Source: a virus (Duplodnaviria > Heunggongvirae > Uroviricota > Caudoviricetes). From it: a DNA stretch of 38,856 bases. Made by a program: the position numbers and the translations under genes. The notes below the pieces were generated by a model. It was given only the letters and a program-made list of their open reading frames with translations. It was not told the origin of the DNA and ran no database searches. The stretch spans positions 1 to 38,856 of the IMG/VR virus record IMGVR_UViG_2513237219_000004; one strand, written 5' to 3'. Positions 6,078-11,329 of this stretch are shown piece by piece (the stretch's first letter is position 1; every line of letters begins with the position of its first letter).

Positions 6078-6560
6078 TTATTTGATAAGAAGTGAAGGTT
6101 TCCCAACCTTGAGTTGAGCACCGGGGATATTTATTCCTGCTTTTAGTTGGTGTTTGATTGCCAGTTTGTCGGCTTTAATTGTCGTTTCAAACTCAACGTA
6201 TTCAGGAGGAAGGACGCTTGAGTCGATGATTTCTACAGTTTCTGACGGTTTGCGGATTGTTACCTGATGAATACCTGCTCGAATCTTTTTCTTGCCAACC
6301 ATTTCAAGCGATGACGCTATATATGATTTGATGCTGTCAATCTTATTTTGAATTACTGCGGCTCGCTCATTCAGCGACTTTGCCTCTTCCTTGAGGCGTT
6401 CAGCATAACCAGATTCATTTTTAATAATGGCAAGAAGTTGTTCTATTTTATCGGTAAATTCTCCTTCCATGCCTTCTATTGTGTCAGCAATCATCTCTGG
6501 CTCTAAATCTGAATCCATCAGCTTTGCGTATTCATTGGCTATTTCATACAGTTTGCTCAC
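6078..6560 (-). CDS. Gp157-family phage protein (recombination-module accessory)
   Basis: Track ORF 6078..6566 with GTG start at 6560 after GGAGG RBS; lies directly downstream of recT. Family call from recall, moderate. Confidence 0.55.
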   Translation of the reverse strand: MSKLYEIANEYAKLMDSDLEPEMIADTIEGMEGEFTDKIEQLLAIIKNESGYAERLKEEAKSLNERAAVIQNKIDSIKSYIASSLEMVGKKKIRAGIHQVTIRKPSETVEIIDSSVLPPEYVEFETTIKADKLAIKHQLKAGINIPGAQLKVGKPSLLIK

Positions 6561-7458
6561 TGGCAACCTCCAGTTTCGCTTTGCATTCTGCGTAAATGGC
6601 TTGTACGTTCTGCTGCAATTTCATTCCAGATGTCAGGCGATATGCTTCTGCAAAATATCGCTTCAAATCATCCATGTTTTCAGCATGAGCCATTTCATCA
6701 CAAAGAAGTTGTGCTTTATCCGTTATTTCCTGCTGGCGTTTCCTTTCATCTTCGCGGATATCTTCCTCTGATTTGTGCGGCATAACTGGTTCAGTCCACA
6801 CACCTTCTTCTTCGTTTAGTACGTGAATAGCACTATCAAGACGTGATGCCTTAGGCCAATACTTGCTTGCACGCTTTACGACCGTCTTTCGCGCCATCTC
6901 ATTCCAGTGATTTACCCATGGTCCTTTATCGCTGAATGCTGCCTTGCTTGTTTTCCTTACAGCCTCAATTTCAGCCAGACTCATCTCTTCCGTTAGATAA
7001 TCACCTGCTGGCGTCTTAACTGTGCAGTAAACGCCAACAATATCACCACGATCACCGAAGGCGTTGTATTTATGGGTTGGTGCTTTATCAAGCCCGTTTG
7101 ACTCATAGGTATCGTTAGCATGAACAAGTTTTGCCTGACCCCATGAGATAACACCAGACTCCATTGCAATATGGAGCAATCCCATATAACTGATATCAAG
7201 GCACACCATGCCGTCGCGCGGAACCAGATAAGCCAGTTTGCTGGCCGGGTTTAAGGTGATACCGATCGCCGCAACATTGATGATGGCGTTCTGTGCGCTG
7301 GTTGGATTTGCCAGTGCTGTTTTAGCCAGGTAATCATTTTTCTGGAAATACTGAATTGCAAACTGGCTTTCCTTAGCCCATGTCACCGTCTGTTCAGTCA
7401 ATGCTCCGCAGAATAACTGCTCTTGCTGTTTAACGAACTCAACAATGCTCATGCTCAT
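6544..7458 (-). CDS. recT: RecT-family single-strand annealing recombinase
   Basis: 304-aa ORF; sequence recalled as RecT family; position equals bet/erf slot of lambdoid early-left operon. Confidence 0.8.
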   Translation of the reverse strand: MSMSIVEFVKQQEQLFCGALTEQTVTWAKESQFAIQYFQKNDYLAKTALANPTSAQNAIINVAAIGITLNPASKLAYLVPRDGMVCLDISYMGLLHIAMESGVISWGQAKLVHANDTYESNGLDKAPTHKYNAFGDRGDIVGVYCTVKTPAGDYLTEEMSLAEIEAVRKTSKAAFSDKGPWVNHWNEMARKTVVKRASKYWPKASRLDSAIHVLNEEEGVWTEPVMPHKSEEDIREDERKRQQEITDKAQLLCDEMAHAENMDDLKRYFAEAYRLTSGMKLQQNVQAIYAECKAKLEVASEQTV

Positions 7459-7460
7459 CG

Positions 7461-7757
7461 TTACTGTCCCTCATCAATATCTGTTTGGTGGCGAGCAATT
7501 GTCTCTGCCATGTAGCGAATAAATTCAGCGGCCCTTTCCTGAAACTCGACGTCATCATCGAATGCTTTGGAAATGGCATTCTTGCTGGCCCCGCGACGTT
7601 GCAACTCGTCAACGCACAACGATTCCAGTTTGCTCTGTGGCAATCCTTTTTCGAGGTCATCAGCCAGTTCAGATTCACGCTCTTCTCTGGCTATTTGCTG
7701 ATAATGGCGCGTCCAGTTCTGCGCCTCGATACGGTCTTGAACGAGATATACAGCCAT
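7461..7757 (-). CDS. gam: Gam host-nuclease (RecBCD) inhibitor, short form
   Basis: Track ORF 7461..7886 trimmed to ATG at 7757 with AGGAG RBS; 98 aa [26 protein letters not shown]...[32 protein letters not shown] closely matches lambda GamS as recalled. Confidence 0.85.
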
Positions 7758-7836: not shown

Positions 7837-8079
7837 TTACTTGCCGAGTGCCTTGTCGATGGCGGAACGAGCCATATCAAACTCATCTGTTTGACGGTCT
7901 GCTACTCTAACTACAGCCTGCAGAGCTTCCAGTAATTCAGGCGCTGCAGTAATGAGAGTCTTGTTTTCCTTGCTCGTCATTTCAAGTGGATATCCCTTTC
8001 CAAAGACTATGTGATGCTTGTTTCCCAAGCCCTCTTCATCCCAAAACCACGGACCGGGAGTTCCTTTAAATTCGCTCAT
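7837..8079 (-). CDS. Hypothetical protein (paralog of 8725..9021)
   Basis: 80-aa ORF with motif KGTPGPW ... [13 protein letters not shown] shared with the 8725..9021 product. Confidence 0.55.
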
Positions 8080-8082
8080 AAC

Positions 8083-8232
8083 TCACTTCCTGTGCCACGG
8101 AAAACCAATTGCCGCCTTCATATCGTTGTAGGCTGACATCCACATTTCACTATCACCAATAAATCGGGCTATTACTGCTTTGTTCTGTGCAGCACGAAGC
8201 ATCTGGTGATTAATGGCTATTTCATTGTGCAT
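8083..8232 (-). CDS. Candidate Kil-like small protein
   Basis: Not in ORF track (49 aa). Manual translation MHNEIAINHQMLRAAQNKAVIARFIGDSEMWMSAYNDMKAAIGFPWHRK; GGAGG RBS; FIGD motif and position resemble lambda Kil by recall. Confidence 0.4.
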   Translation of the reverse strand: MHNEIAINHQMLRAAQNKAVIARFIGDSEMWMSAYNDMKAAIGFPWHRK

Positions 8233-8351
8233 AACGCCTCCAGTTGTTTCTTTGCTGCTCTGATTAATTGTTTAACTCGGCGTGATAATTCAGATTCGTG
8301 CGGGTAGAAAGCGGACATGACGCCGCTACCCGCGAGCTGAAAGTGCATCAT
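8217..8351 (-). CDS. Candidate CIII-like small protein
   Basis: Not in ORF track (44 aa). Manual translation MMHFQLAGSGVMSAFYPHESELSRRVKQLIRAAKKQLEALCTMK; AAGGAG RBS 6 nt upstream; pattern M-x-F/Y-x-L/I-AG...P-ES-L..R resembles lambda CIII by recall; overlaps start of the kil-like ORF. Confidence 0.45.
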   Translation of the reverse strand: MMHFQLAGSGVMSAFYPHESELSRRVKQLIRAAKKQLEALCTMK

Positions 8352-8415
8352 GGGTAACTCCTTATATTTGATTGCATAACGAAAACGCCTCGAATGAAGC
8401 GTTATTGGTATGCAT

Positions 8416-8441
8416 ATAAAAAGGCCCTCACACTAGAGGGC
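8416..8441 (-). terminator. Intrinsic terminator, minus strand
   Basis: Hairpin GCCCTC-ACACTA-GAGGGC (8424..8441) followed on minus strand by T-rich tract (complement of 8416..8423). Confidence 0.45.
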
Positions 8442-8536
8442 AAAGAAGATTTCCAATAATCAGAACAAGTCGGCTCCTGTTTAGTTACGAGCGACATTGC
8501 TCCGTGTATTCACTCGTTGGAATGAATACACAGTGC

Positions 8537-8725
8537 TTATTCGTCATGCATTTCAGGTAATTCTTCGTATTCGACGCCCCATACGAGTTTACACCAACTA
8601 ACTCGCTCATATCTTTTACAAAAATCAGACCACATAACTTGGGTTCCATCATGGTTTGTTATTACTTCTGTAATATCACCAACACTAACAAAACTGGTAT
8701 TAGAAGCGGTTATTTTTACTTTCAT
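8537..8725 (-). CDS. Hypothetical small protein
   Basis: 62-aa ORF; a 9-bp perfect inverted repeat (8504..8531) lies just 3' of it. Confidence 0.5.
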   Translation of the reverse strand: MKVKITASNTSFVSVGDITEVITNHDGTQVMWSDFCKRYERVSWCKLVWGVEYEELPEMHDE

Positions 8726-9021
8726 TACTTATCCCCAAGAGCTTTTCTGATTGCTGCAAGACCTTTATTAACAGCTCCATACCATTCTGGATATGTTGTC
8801 GTTGTTCTATTTTTGGTTTGCTTAAGTAATAACTGAAGTGCTTCGAGAAGGTCAGGTGCTGCCGCTATTAGATTGGCATCTTCAATGCATTGAACTTCCT
8901 CACAGATTGCAATATACGAACGCCAGCCTGCGCCATTTTCAAGTGAGTCTGCCTGGATGATTTTAATCTCATCGCCATCCATCATTATTTCCCACTTACC
9001 TTCGGTACCTTTAAATTCCAT
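8725..9021 (-). CDS. Hypothetical protein (paralog of 7837..8079)
   Basis: 98-aa ORF, MEFKGTEGKWE ... LIAAAPDLLEALQ. Confidence 0.55.
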   Translation of the reverse strand: MEFKGTEGKWEIMMDGDEIKIIQADSLENGAGWRSYIAICEEVQCIEDANLIAAAPDLLEALQLLLKQTKNRTTTTYPEWYGAVNKGLAAIRKALGDK

Positions 9022-9052: not shown

Positions 9053-9295
9053 TTAATCAGCAATAAACTCTTCTGGTAATTTATCAACTATTTGATGACT
9101 TATTATCAGCCATTTGCCATCCTTCGTTTCGTATGCATATTTCTGGTCTTTTATCATCATGTGTTCAGCTACTGCCTTAACTGCCTGTTCGGTGACATCT
9201 TCTTTCTTTCCTACCCACATTCCTTTTTCAGTGTTTAATGTTCCTTGAAAAATACGACCGCTTAATGGGCTTGCGCCCATAGTTTTTACTCTCAT
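9053..9295 (-). CDS. Hypothetical protein
   Basis: 80-aa ORF between N and the early-left accessory genes. Confidence 0.55.
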   Translation of the reverse strand: MRVKTMGASPLSGRIFQGTLNTEKGMWVGKKEDVTEQAVKAVAEHMMIKDQKYAYETKDGKWLIISHQIVDKLPEEFIAD

Positions 9296-9305
9296 GTATC
9301 AGTCC

Positions 9306-9632
9306 TCAAATAAGTGGTTTGCTGCCTAATTTAATTTTCTGGCGACCAACACAAGTCACACCCATTTCACTGCGTGGCTTGCTGTACCATGTGCGCTGAT
9401 TCTTGCGCTCAATACGATGCAGGTTGCTTTCAATCTGTTCTTGGTATTCAGCCAGCACCGTAAGGTCTATCGGATTCAGTGCGCTTTCTACTCGTGATTT
9501 CGGTTTGCGATTCAGCGAGAGAATAGGGCGGTTAACTGGTTTTGCGCTTACCCCAACCAACAGGGGATTTGCTGCTTTCCATTGAGCCTGTTTCTCTGCG
9601 CGACGTTCGCGGCGGCGTGTTTGTGCATCCAT
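9306..9632 (-). CDS. N: Antitermination protein N (lambda type)
   Basis: Track ORF 9306..9722 trimmed to ATG at 9632 with AGGAGA RBS; 108 aa MDAQTRRRERRAEKQAQWKAANPLLVGV... matches lambda N arginine-rich motif and body. Confidence 0.9.
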   Translation of the reverse strand: MDAQTRRRERRAEKQAQWKAANPLLVGVSAKPVNRPILSLNRKPKSRVESALNPIDLTVLAEYQEQIESNLHRIERKNQRTWYSKPRSEMGVTCVGRQKIKLGSKPLI

Positions 9633-9742: not shown

Positions 9743-9773
9743 GCCCTTCTTCAGGGCTTAATTTTTAAGAGCA
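9743..9773 (-). promoter_or_regulatory. nutL: nutL (boxA + boxB) antitermination site
   Basis: Minus-strand reading GCTCTTAAAAATTAA + GCCCTGAAGAAGGGC, equal to lambda nutL boxA/boxB as recalled. Confidence 0.8.
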
Positions 9774-10262: not shown

Positions 10263-10784
10263 TCAAAATTTTGGCAGATCGTCCTGGTCTACGTACCTAG
10301 TGTGTTTCACAATAGCTGAAACAAAATGCATTTTATCAACTTCTTCAACAGGAAGAGTGATTGGACGGTGATCGCTGTTTATACTACTAAACTGATAGTC
10401 TCCGTCTCTTGTTTTGTTCATGATCTTTATCATGTTATGACCATCTTTGGTCCTTACAAAGACTTCATCACCTGGATGTACTGGCGTATTTGGTTCAATA
10501 ACAACATATTCTCCTGACTGAATCCTTGGCCACATGCTGTCACCCTTAACCTTCAGACCGTAAGCATCTTTATCGCCACTGTAGATGCTTAACCAACCGG
10601 ATCTGAATTCAATCATATCCACTGAGCCATCAACTCCCAAAACGGCTTCACCAATTACCGGAACAAAACCCGCACGAACGTTACCCGCAAACTCAAGATG
10701 GTCTGCAGATCCAACTTTGCTATCTGCAAGCATGTCCATCCATCCGCGTGGGAGATTAAAAGATTTTTCAATTAGTTCCATCAT
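10263..10784 (-). CDS. cI: S24 (LexA/CI-type) autopeptidase domain, C-terminal piece of CI-like repressor
   Basis: 173-aa ORF with GDSMWPRIQSGEYVVIE and GDEVFVRTKDG motifs; no HTH and no SD before its ATG; the frame stays open 36 codons upstream without a start. Confidence 0.75.
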   Translation of the reverse strand: MMELIEKSFNLPRGWMDMLADSKVGSADHLEFAGNVRAGFVPVIGEAVLGVDGSVDMIEFRSGWLSIYSGDKDAYGLKVKGDSMWPRIQSGEYVVIEPNTPVHPGDEVFVRTKDGHNMIKIMNKTRDGDYQFSSINSDHRPITLPVEEVDKMHFVSAIVKHTRYVDQDDLPKF

Positions 10785-10788
10785 ATCG

Positions 10789-10950
10789 TCAGCAATGCGT
10801 TTTTTTCCGTCTTTTTCCTTCCGGATACAGCATTCTGGAAACGTATGATGGTTCCCTTTCTATTCGACGAGCCAACTCTGAGGCCTTTCCATTACAGAAT
10901 CGGTCTCTTATCTCTATCAGCCTTAGTCGTCTTTGTTCGTATTTATCCAT
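10789..10950 (-). CDS. cI: HTH DNA-binding piece of CI-like repressor (53 codons, then TGA)
   Basis: Not in ORF track. Manual translation MDKYEQRRLRLIEIRDRFCNGKASELARRIEREPSYVSRMLYPEGKRRKKTHC; HTH-like GKASELARRIEREPSYVSRM; ATG 21 bp from an operator palindrome; ends in another frame just before the S24 ORF. Confidence 0.6.
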   Translation of the reverse strand: MDKYEQRRLRLIEIRDRFCNGKASELARRIEREPSYVSRMLYPEGKRRKKTHC

Positions 10951-11297: not shown

Positions 11298-11329
11298 CGC
11301 TCTTACACATTCCAGCCCTGAAAAAGGGC
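11298..11329 (+). promoter_or_regulatory. nutR: nutR (boxA CGCTCTTA + boxB GCCCTGAAAAAGGGC)
   Basis: Matches lambda nutR as recalled; followed by lambda-like tR1/cII leader. Confidence 0.8.

What the first reader, a model, noticed from the sequence alone, without database searches (positions are those of the whole stretch)
8083..8351. Two short overlapping ORFs with strong RBSs look like cIII and kil homologs
Both are below the 60-aa ORF-track cutoff. 8217..8351 (44 aa) has AAGGAG 6 nt upstream and a CIII-like pattern; 8083..8232 (49 aa) has GGAGG and a Kil-like FIGD motif. Together with gam and recT downstream this reproduces the lambda order cIII-kil-gam-bet.
Basis: partly seen in the sequence, partly recalled or inferred. 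Interest (0 to 1): 0.45.

Follow-up and report, generated by a model that had tools for sequence, protein, structure and literature searches.

The report
HK022-type cIII and kil genes
The two short overlapping reading frames are real, already well-known phage genes, cIII (a small inhibitor of the host FtsH protease that favours lysogeny) and kil (a small peptide that blocks host cell division), so the finding is correct but ordinary.

Summary
Both ORFs exist as described, on the minus strand: cIII at 8217..8351 (44 aa, AAGGAG 6 nt before the ATG) and kil at 8083..8232 (49 aa, GGAGG 4 nt before the ATG), overlapping by 16 nt. cIII matches Pfam PF08134 (HK022-class cIII) over its full length at 104.7 bits (cut-off 25). 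It is 97.7% identical to HK022 CIII and 100% identical to phage Dewey CIII. Kil matches Pfam PF06301 Lambda_Kil at 56.7 bits (cut-off 27.6). [quoted passage not shown] Both frames are intact in all related loci examined, and kil is under purifying selection (dN/dS 0.13-0.21). The pair lies in an N-antiterminated pL operon: lambda-type N and nutL, then cIII, kil, an extra 80-aa gene, gam and recT. The only peculiarity is ordinary lambdoid mosaicism. The kil DNA is near-identical to HK022 up to the GD turn codons, then switches to a second allele of helix 2. That allele is absent at megablast level from 5,426 complete E. coli genomes but present in phage Dewey and IMG/VR contigs. Verdict: already known, low interest.

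The parts
8217..8351 (-). cIII gene, HK022 class: a 44-aa FtsH-inhibitory lysogeny factor
   Evidence: Pfam PF08134 at 104.7 bits, profile positions 1-37 of 37, and PHROG 550. 100% identical to Dewey CIII and 97.7% to HK022, HK97 and H-19B CIII. AF2 predicts a helix over residues 17-42 with pLDDT above 90. Hydrophobic moment of residues 17-40 is 0.53, reached by 0.8% of shuffles.
8083..8232 (-). kil gene: a 49-aa inhibitor of host cell division (FtsZ ring)
   Evidence: Pfam PF06301 at 56.7 bits, profile positions 1-31 of 31, and PHROG 2055 at E=1e-30. 100% identical to Dewey Kil, 75.5% to HK022 Kil and 40% to lambda Kil. AF2 predicts helix 2-25, a turn at G26-D27 and helix 28-42, mean pLDDT 85. 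dN/dS is 0.13-0.21.
8357..8363 (-). Shine-Dalgarno sequence of cIII (AAGGAG, 6 nt before the ATG)
   Evidence: Sequence. An identical 20-nt upstream context occurs in 59 of 62 related loci.
8237..8241 (-). Shine-Dalgarno sequence of kil (GGAGG, 4 nt before the ATG), lying inside the 3' end of cIII
   Evidence: Sequences.
8145..8152 (-). Mosaic crossover inside kil, just after the codons for the G26-D27 turn
   Evidence: Upstream of this point the DNA is near-identical to HK022. Downstream it follows a second kil allele instead. Matches in E. coli genomes stop at about window 8138-8140.
8352..8536 (-). Conserved, structured leader upstream of cIII with three hairpins, two of them terminator-like (8441..8424 with a U tract, and 8403..8384)
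   Evidence: Terminator scan. RNA folds with z=-4.4 and z=-5.3, in which the U tract pairs with the cIII Shine-Dalgarno sequence. Conserved in HK022, Dewey and L021, with changes only in a loop.
7837..8079 (-). 80-aa gene of unknown function (phrog_1273) inserted between kil and gam
   Evidence: PHROG 1273 at E=4e-19. Annotated as a hypothetical protein in Dewey. It travels with the window-type kil helix 2 in related loci.
7461..7757 (-). gam (98-aa short form); the longer ORF extending to 7886 overlaps the 80-aa gene
   Evidence: Pfam PF06064 Gam at 168 bits matches residues 44-138 of the long ORF. AGGAG lies 6 nt before the ATG at 7757.
6544..7458 (-). recT, the single-strand annealing protein
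   Evidence: Pfam PF03837 at 112 bits and PHROG 148 at E=3e-92.
9306..9632 (-). Lambda-type antiterminator N, the first gene of the pL operon
   Evidence: Pfam PF11438 N36 at 91 bits. Dewey annotates a 327-nt N gene.
9743..9757 (-). nutL boxB, identical to that of lambda
   Evidence: Exact match to GCCCTGAAGAAGGGC. The same sequence lies within the annotated NutL of lambda.

Best explanation
These are the cIII and kil genes of a lambdoid (P22/HK620-like) E. coli phage, transcribed leftward from pL as delayed-early genes once N, acting at nutL, lets RNA polymerase read through the terminator-like hairpins upstream of cIII. CIII is a 44-aa peptide whose central amphipathic helix competitively inhibits the membrane protease FtsH; this stabilises CII and favours lysogeny. 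Kil is a 49-aa helix-turn-helix hairpin that disrupts FtsZ ring assembly (ZipA-dependent in lambda), transiently blocking host division during lytic growth or induction. The 16-nt overlap, with the kil ribosome-binding site inside cIII, probably couples their translation. Shown here: gene existence, family membership, conservation, predicted folds and operon context. Inferred from work on lambda and its relatives: the FtsH and FtsZ/ZipA activities, N-dependent expression and translational coupling.
For: Both proteins exceed curated Pfam thresholds over the full profile length: PF08134 at 104.7 bits against 25, and PF06301 at 56.7 bits against 27.6. PHROG 550 and PHROG 2055 also match. CIII is 97.7% identical to HK022, HK97 and H-19B CIII, and X16093 annotates the same 44-aa cIII and a 50-aa kil. 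Both proteins are 100% identical to the annotated Dewey genes. HK022-type cIII plus the 5' part of kil occurs in 727 of 5,426 complete E. coli genomes, annotated as 'host cell division inhibitory peptide Kil' and, in some, 'protease FtsH-inhibitory lysogeny factor CIII'. Kil shows dN/dS of 0.13-0.21 against two divergent alleles. cIII is intact in 62 of 62 loci with a conserved ribosome-binding site. The CIII core (residues 17-40) aligns with the essential lambda region 14-37 and is amphipathic, with muH 0.53 reached by 0.8% of shuffles; AF2 predicts a helix with pLDDT above 90 (PMC1838920). The Kil model is a helix-GD-helix hairpin like the one reported for lambda Kil (PMC11762379). The context is a lambda-type N, nutL boxB, gam and recT.
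Against: No activity was measured for this allele. HK022-class CIII is only 32% identical to lambda CIII (8 of 24 residues in the core) and falls below the lambda-class Pfam threshold. The Kil C-terminus ends in HRK rather than the RSK/RSSK motif reported as common in lambda Kil homologues (PMC11762379). Helix 2 comes from a different allele than helix 1, so ZipA dependence may differ. NCBIfam has no model that hits either protein. The phage's cI repressor appears frameshifted, so the lysogeny role of CIII may be moot in this particular genome.
Confidence: 0.93

Rival explanations
1. The two ORFs are chance open frames in a non-coding stretch or a structured RNA, not genes.
For: Both are very short (44 and 49 aa). 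The upstream leader is strongly structured. NCBIfam gives no hit.
Against: Both give full-length Pfam and PHROG matches far above threshold. kil shows dN/dS of 0.13-0.21. No allele among 62 cIII loci and 81 kil loci has an internal stop. Ribosome-binding sites are conserved. The predicted folds are confident. Rfam finds no RNA family.
Confidence: 0.01
2. kil is a recombinant whose two helices come from different alleles and is functionally altered, being either inactive or aimed at a shifted target such as a ZipA-independent one. It would then be a kil homologue by descent that does not work like lambda Kil.
For: The crossover lies exactly after the GD turn codons. Helix 2 is only about 50% identical to that of HK022 and ends in HRK rather than RSK/RSSK (PMC11762379). 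The junction is absent at megablast sensitivity from 5,426 complete E. coli genomes.
Against: The same chimera, intact, is present in Dewey and three IMG/VR contigs, L004-L006 (L006 matched from residue 3). Helix 2 is itself under purifying selection, with omega 0.16 against the L008 type. The AF2 hairpin is confident. Lambda Kil tolerates deletion of 11 C-terminal residues (PMC11762379).
Confidence: 0.05
3. The genes are intact but are relics in a phage that can no longer lysogenise, because the repressor is frameshifted. On this reading cIII has no current function here.
For: A one-base insertion at window 10810 splits the mEp043-type cI gene into 53-aa and 173-aa pieces.
Against: The insertion may be a sequencing error or a recent clear-plaque mutation. 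cIII is identical to the copy in Dewey, so no decay is visible. This concerns current utility, not what the genes are.
Confidence: 0.1

Closest known systems
Phage HK022 CIII (also HK97 and H-19B); Pfam PF08134 'cIII protein family'
   Same: Same length (44 aa) and 43 of 44 residues identical (T42 here, A42 in HK022). Same ribosome-binding site, the same conserved leader of about 170 nt, and the same 16-nt overlap with kil.
   Different: A single nucleotide change alters both CIII residue 42 and Kil residue 2 (H here, R in HK022). Here the gene lies in a P22/HK620-like podophage with lambda-type N rather than HK022 Nun.
Phage lambda CIII (Pfam PF02061), the FtsH inhibitor
   Same: Same position in the pL operon upstream of and overlapping kil. 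It shares the conserved N-terminal AG motif and a central amphipathic helix equivalent to the essential lambda residues 14-37 (PMC1838920).
   Different: Only 32% identical, 44 aa against 54 aa, without the lambda C-terminal tail, and below the PF02061 threshold (12.4 bits against 25.7). Kobiler et al. treat it as a separate HK022 class (PMC1838920).
Phage lambda Kil (Pfam PF06301), the ZipA-dependent inhibitor of FtsZ ring assembly
   Same: 40% identity with a shared Q.K..IA.FIGD core. A predicted helix-turn-helix with the turn at G-D. Located directly after cIII (PMC3961180, PMC11762379).
   Different: It has a seven-residue N-terminal extension. The C-terminus is PWHRK instead of RSSKSIH. 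It does not overlap gam, because an 80-aa gene intervenes.
Phage HK022 Kil (50 aa)
   Same: The DNA is near-identical through codon 27, with 3 differences in 81 nt.
   Different: Helix 2 comes from another allele, with 26 differences in 60 nt. Downstream, HK022 has an erf/abc-type recombination module instead of gam-recT.
Escherichia phage Dewey (PQ850600) CDS0039 and CDS0040
   Same: 100% identical CIII and Kil, and the same downstream 80-aa gene, gam and recT.
   Different: A different immunity region, and different genes between N and cIII.

Membership tests
CIII, HK022 class (Pfam PF08134) | Full-length profile match above the curated gathering score | tested here: met
   104.7 bits against a cut-off of 25, profile positions 1-37 of 37.
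CIII, HK022 class (Pfam PF08134) | Near-identity to the founding member, HK022 CIII (44 aa) | tested here: met
   97.7% identity over 44 of 44 residues to HK022, HK97 and H-19B.
CIII (both classes), FtsH inhibitor | Central amphipathic alpha-helix of about 24 residues, equivalent to lambda residues 14-37 | tested here: met
   Residues 17-40 align to lambda 14-37. muH is 0.53 and is reached by 0.8% of shuffles. AF2 predicts a helix over 17-42 with pLDDT 93-96.
CIII (both classes), FtsH inhibitor | Location in the pL operon downstream of N and immediately upstream of kil | tested here: met
   N lies at 9306..9632 and nutL boxB at 9743..9757. cIII overlaps kil by 16 nt.
CIII (both classes), FtsH inhibitor | Inhibits FtsH and stabilises CII and sigma32 | not testable with these tools
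   This needs biochemistry or genetics. It is known for lambda CIII (PMC1838920).
CIII, lambda class (Pfam PF02061) | Profile match above the curated gathering score | tested here: not met
   12.4 bits against a cut-off of 25.7. It is therefore filed under the HK022 class, not the lambda class.
Kil (Pfam PF06301 Lambda_Kil) | Profile match above the curated gathering score | tested here: met
   56.7 bits against a cut-off of 27.6, profile positions 1-31 of 31. PHROG 2055 matches at E=1.3e-30.
Kil (Pfam PF06301 Lambda_Kil) | Helix-turn-helix hairpin with a Gly-Asp turn (lambda G19-D20) | tested here: met
   AF2 predicts H2-25, a turn at G26-D27 and H28-42, mean pLDDT 85. FIGD is invariant in the alignment. 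The lambda model is described in PMC11762379.
Kil (Pfam PF06301 Lambda_Kil) | Polar or basic C-terminal RSK/RSSK motif | tested here: inconclusive
   The window ends in ...PWHRK. R48 aligns with the lambda R of RSSK, but the motif itself is not present.
Kil (Pfam PF06301 Lambda_Kil) | Gene located directly after cIII in the pL operon | tested here: met
   The arrangement matches lambda and HK022.
Kil (Pfam PF06301 Lambda_Kil) | Blocks FtsZ ring assembly in a ZipA-dependent manner and causes filamentation | not testable with these tools
   Shown for lambda Kil and HK629 Kil (PMC3961180, PMC11762379), not for this allele.

The most novel reading that the evidence does not exclude
The kil allele is a natural chimera whose crossover falls exactly at the Gly-Asp turn, joining an HK022-type helix 1 to helix 2 of a second Kil lineage. 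If the two helices contact different partners (FtsZ and ZipA), as Naha et al. 2025 speculate, such chimeras would show that the helices are independently exchangeable functional modules. They would also provide ready-made reagents to test that two-pronged model. The structured leader, whose terminator U tract pairs with the cIII Shine-Dalgarno sequence, might likewise be an undescribed translational control for HK022-class cIII.
Probability: 0.12. Interest if true: 0.3.

Novelty: already known. Interest (0 to 1): 0.08.

Why it matters
It matters little beyond correct annotation. The result confirms that sub-60-aa ORFs missed by a length cut-off can be real, well-characterised regulators. It also shows that many RefSeq E. 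coli genomes still label the HK022-class cIII as 'hypothetical protein', and that the PHROG label 'CIII anti-termination' is misleading. The kil chimera is a tidy example of a lambdoid mosaic joint inside a 49-codon gene, and it could serve as a natural helix-swap variant for Kil mechanism studies.

Tried and rejected
- **NCBIfam:** a scan of CIII, Kil, the 80-aa protein and Gam gave no hits at E<=0.01. NCBI's names for these proteins evidently come from other rule types, so this is not evidence against membership.
- **Rfam:** a gathering-threshold scan of the whole window found no RNA family.
- **dN/dS for cIII:** not informative. HK022-class alleles are nearly identical (9 nucleotide alleles in 62 loci), and lambda-class genes are too diverged. 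I relied instead on intactness, profile scores and structure.
- **Terminator hairpin search:** an exact-pattern search for the hairpin at 8441..8424 in related loci found nothing. This was only because the loop differs by one to three bases; the alignment shows the stem and U tract are conserved.
- **Repressor comparison with Dewey:** aligning the window's repressor to Dewey's showed that they are unrelated immunity types. mEp043 was the right comparator.

Full report
**Observation.**
Both ORFs lie on the minus strand.
- ORF 8217..8351 encodes 44 aa (MMHFQLAGSGVMSAFYPHESELSRRVKQLIRAAKKQLEALCTMK).
- ORF 8083..8232 encodes 49 aa (MHNEIAINHQMLRAAQNKAVIARFIGDSEMWMSAYNDMKAAIGFPWHRK).
- The reverse complement of the sequence reads ...TATAAGGAGTTACCCATGATG for the first ORF, so AAGGAG lies 6 nt before the ATG.
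- It reads ...CTGGAGGCGTTATGCAC for the second ORF, so GGAGG lies 4 nt before the ATG.
- The frames overlap by 16 nt, so the kil ribosome-binding site and start codon lie within the last codons of cIII.

**Identity.**
- The 44-aa protein matches Pfam PF08134 ('cIII protein family') over the whole profile at 104.7 bits (cut-off 25). It scores only 12.4 bits on the lambda-class model PF02061 (cut-off 25.7). PHROG 550 also matches.
- The 49-aa protein matches PF06301 Lambda_Kil over the whole profile at 56.7 bits (cut-off 27.6), and PHROG 2055 at E=1.3e-30.
- By tblastn against 50,697 phage records, CIII is 100% identical to phage Dewey and 97.7% identical to HK022, HK97, H-19B, mEpX2, HK106 and others. 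The original HK022 entry X16093 annotates a 44-aa cIII product and a 50-aa kil product.
- Kil is 100% identical to Dewey Kil, 75.5% to HK022-type Kil and 40% to lambda Kil, with the Q.K..IA.FIGD core invariant.
- Kobiler et al. (PMC1838920) already divide CIII proteins into a lambda class and an HK022 class, and this one belongs to the latter.
- In complete RefSeq E. coli genomes, the cIII plus 5'-kil DNA occurs in 727 of 5,426 genomes. There it is annotated as 'host cell division inhibitory peptide Kil' and either 'hypothetical protein' or 'protease FtsH-inhibitory lysogeny factor CIII'.

**Conservation.**
- A scan of IMG/VR with the Kil protein found 413 confirmed relatives, of which I examined 80 loci.
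- All Kil frames found are intact. They fall into an HK022-type allele, a second type (MINHNMLRAAQNKALIARFIGD...MWMSAYNDMKAAIGFPWHRK) and the window or Dewey chimera.
- Nei-Gojobori dN/dS for kil is 0.21 against HK022 and 0.13 against the second type.
- HK022-class cIII is intact in 62 of 62 loci. Only 9 nucleotide alleles exist, and the 20 nt upstream of the start are identical in 59 loci. That is too little variation for a dN/dS estimate.

**Structure.**
- Single-sequence AlphaFold2 models CIII with a helix over residues 17-42 and pLDDT of 93-96 across residues 21-40.
- Residues 17-40 align with the essential lambda region 14-37. Their helical hydrophobic moment is 0.53, reached by 0.8% of shuffles.
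- Kil is modelled as helix 2-25, a turn at G26-D27 and helix 28-42, with mean pLDDT 85.
- This is the helix-turn-helix reported for lambda Kil, which has helix 4-18, a turn at G19-D20 and helix 21-38 (PMC11762379).

**Context and mechanism.** The window is a mosaic P22/HK620-like E. coli phage genome; its best overall relatives are Gally, Dewey, Kapi1 and IME10. Reading leftward on the minus strand, the order is:

| Element | Coordinates | Evidence |
|---|---|---|
| nutL boxB, identical to lambda | 9743..9757 | |
| Lambda-type N | 9306..9632 | PF11438, |
| DUF7446 gene | 9053..9295 | |
| phrog_1273 gene, 98 aa | 8725..9021 | |
| phrog_10407 gene | 8537..8725 | |
| Conserved structured leader of about 170 nt, with two terminator-like hairpins | 8352..8536 | |
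| cIII | 8217..8351 | |
| kil | 8083..8232 | |
| Second phrog_1273 gene, 80 aa | 7837..8079 | |
| gam, short form | 7461..7757 | |
| recT | 6544..7458 | |
| Gp157-family gene | 6078..6566 | |

- By analogy with lambda (established knowledge, not tested here), cIII and kil are delayed-early genes. They are expressed from pL once N allows read-through of terminators.
- CIII competitively inhibits FtsH and so protects CII (PMC1838920).
- Kil disrupts FtsZ rings in a ZipA-dependent way (PMC3961180).
However, an extra gene separates kil from gam, whereas in lambda they overlap. RecT replaces Bet, and no exo homologue is adjacent.

**The one peculiarity.**
- The DNA is almost identical to HK022 from the leader through the GAT codon of D27, with 3 differences in the first 81 nt of kil.
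- It then diverges sharply, with 26 differences in the next 60 nt, and loses all similarity after the stop codon.
- From that point it follows the second Kil type instead, with 7 differences in 66 nt.
- E. coli genome matches stop at about window 8138-8140. None of 5,426 complete genomes carries the 3' end of kil plus the 80-aa gene at megablast sensitivity.
- The window-type helix 2 is linked to phrog_1273-like genes and gam, whereas the HK022-type helix 2 is linked to gam-less modules.
- This is a standard lambdoid mosaic joint that happens to fall at the turn of a two-helix peptide. The chimera is present intact in Dewey and in IMG/VR contigs L004-L006, so it is neither unique nor decayed.

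**Verdict.** The genes are already known and annotated in identical form in a public phage genome. Interest is low.

Noticed in passing
window 10263..10950 (- strand), insertion at 10810: The cI-type repressor has mEp043 immunity (97% nucleotide identity) but is split into a 53-aa N-terminal ORF and a 173-aa C-terminal ORF. The cause is one extra base, GGAAAAAG[A]CGG on the minus strand, relative to the intact 228-aa mEp043 cI. It is either a clear-plaque-type frameshift or a sequencing error.
   Followed up: partly
window 8352..8536 (- strand): A leader of about 170 nt upstream of cIII is conserved in HK022, Dewey and an IMG/VR phage. It contains three hairpins (about 8536-8509, 8441-8424 followed by a U tract, and 8403-8384). 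The predicted fold (z=-5.3) pairs the terminator U tract with the cIII Shine-Dalgarno sequence. Only the loop of the middle hairpin varies between phages. This may be a terminator combined with translational control, reminiscent of lambda cIII mRNA regulation but untested.
   Followed up: partly
window 8402..8497 (- strand): A 31-aa ORF that Dewey annotates as a hypothetical protein lies across the terminator-like hairpins of the cIII leader. It is probably not a gene.
   Followed up: no
window 7837..8079 and 8725..9021 (- strand): Two paralogues of an uncharacterised phage family (phrog_1273) flank the cIII-kil pair in the same operon. They are 33% identical and share an N-terminal EFKGT motif and an [10 protein letters not shown] motif. 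Neither has a Pfam family.
   Followed up: partly
window 9743..9757 (-) and 11315..11329 (+): The boxB hairpins are lambda-identical for nutL and lambda-type for nutR (one base different from the nutL boxB sequence searched). They are combined with a lambda-type N but a non-lambda (mEp043-type) immunity region, another mosaic combination.
   Followed up: partly
window 6078..7458 (- strand): recT is followed by a Siphovirus Gp157-family gene (labelled 'Mu Gam-like end protection' in PHROGs) rather than an exonuclease. No exo partner for RecT was seen next to it.
   Followed up: no
loci L006, L034, L036, L037 (IMG/VR): Some relatives carry a 43-aa cIII that is lambda-like through most of its length (MIYAIAGGARMGAFQLNESLLERITRKLRDGWKRVEVLL..) but ends with the HK022-type C/RAMK tail that overlaps kil. 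The cIII/kil junction is therefore itself a recombination hot-spot.
   Followed up: no
loci L008-L020 (IMG/VR): The second Kil type (44 aa, starting MINHNMLRAAQ...) is preceded not by cIII but by an unrelated 52-aa ORF (MTVTHNGKQY...LLQQVEGKS), so kil can occur without an adjacent cIII.
   Followed up: no
PHROG 550 and RefSeq annotations: The PHROG label 'CIII anti-termination' is a misnomer, because CIII is an FtsH inhibitor. Many RefSeq E. coli genomes call the HK022-class cIII a 'hypothetical protein'.
   Followed up: no
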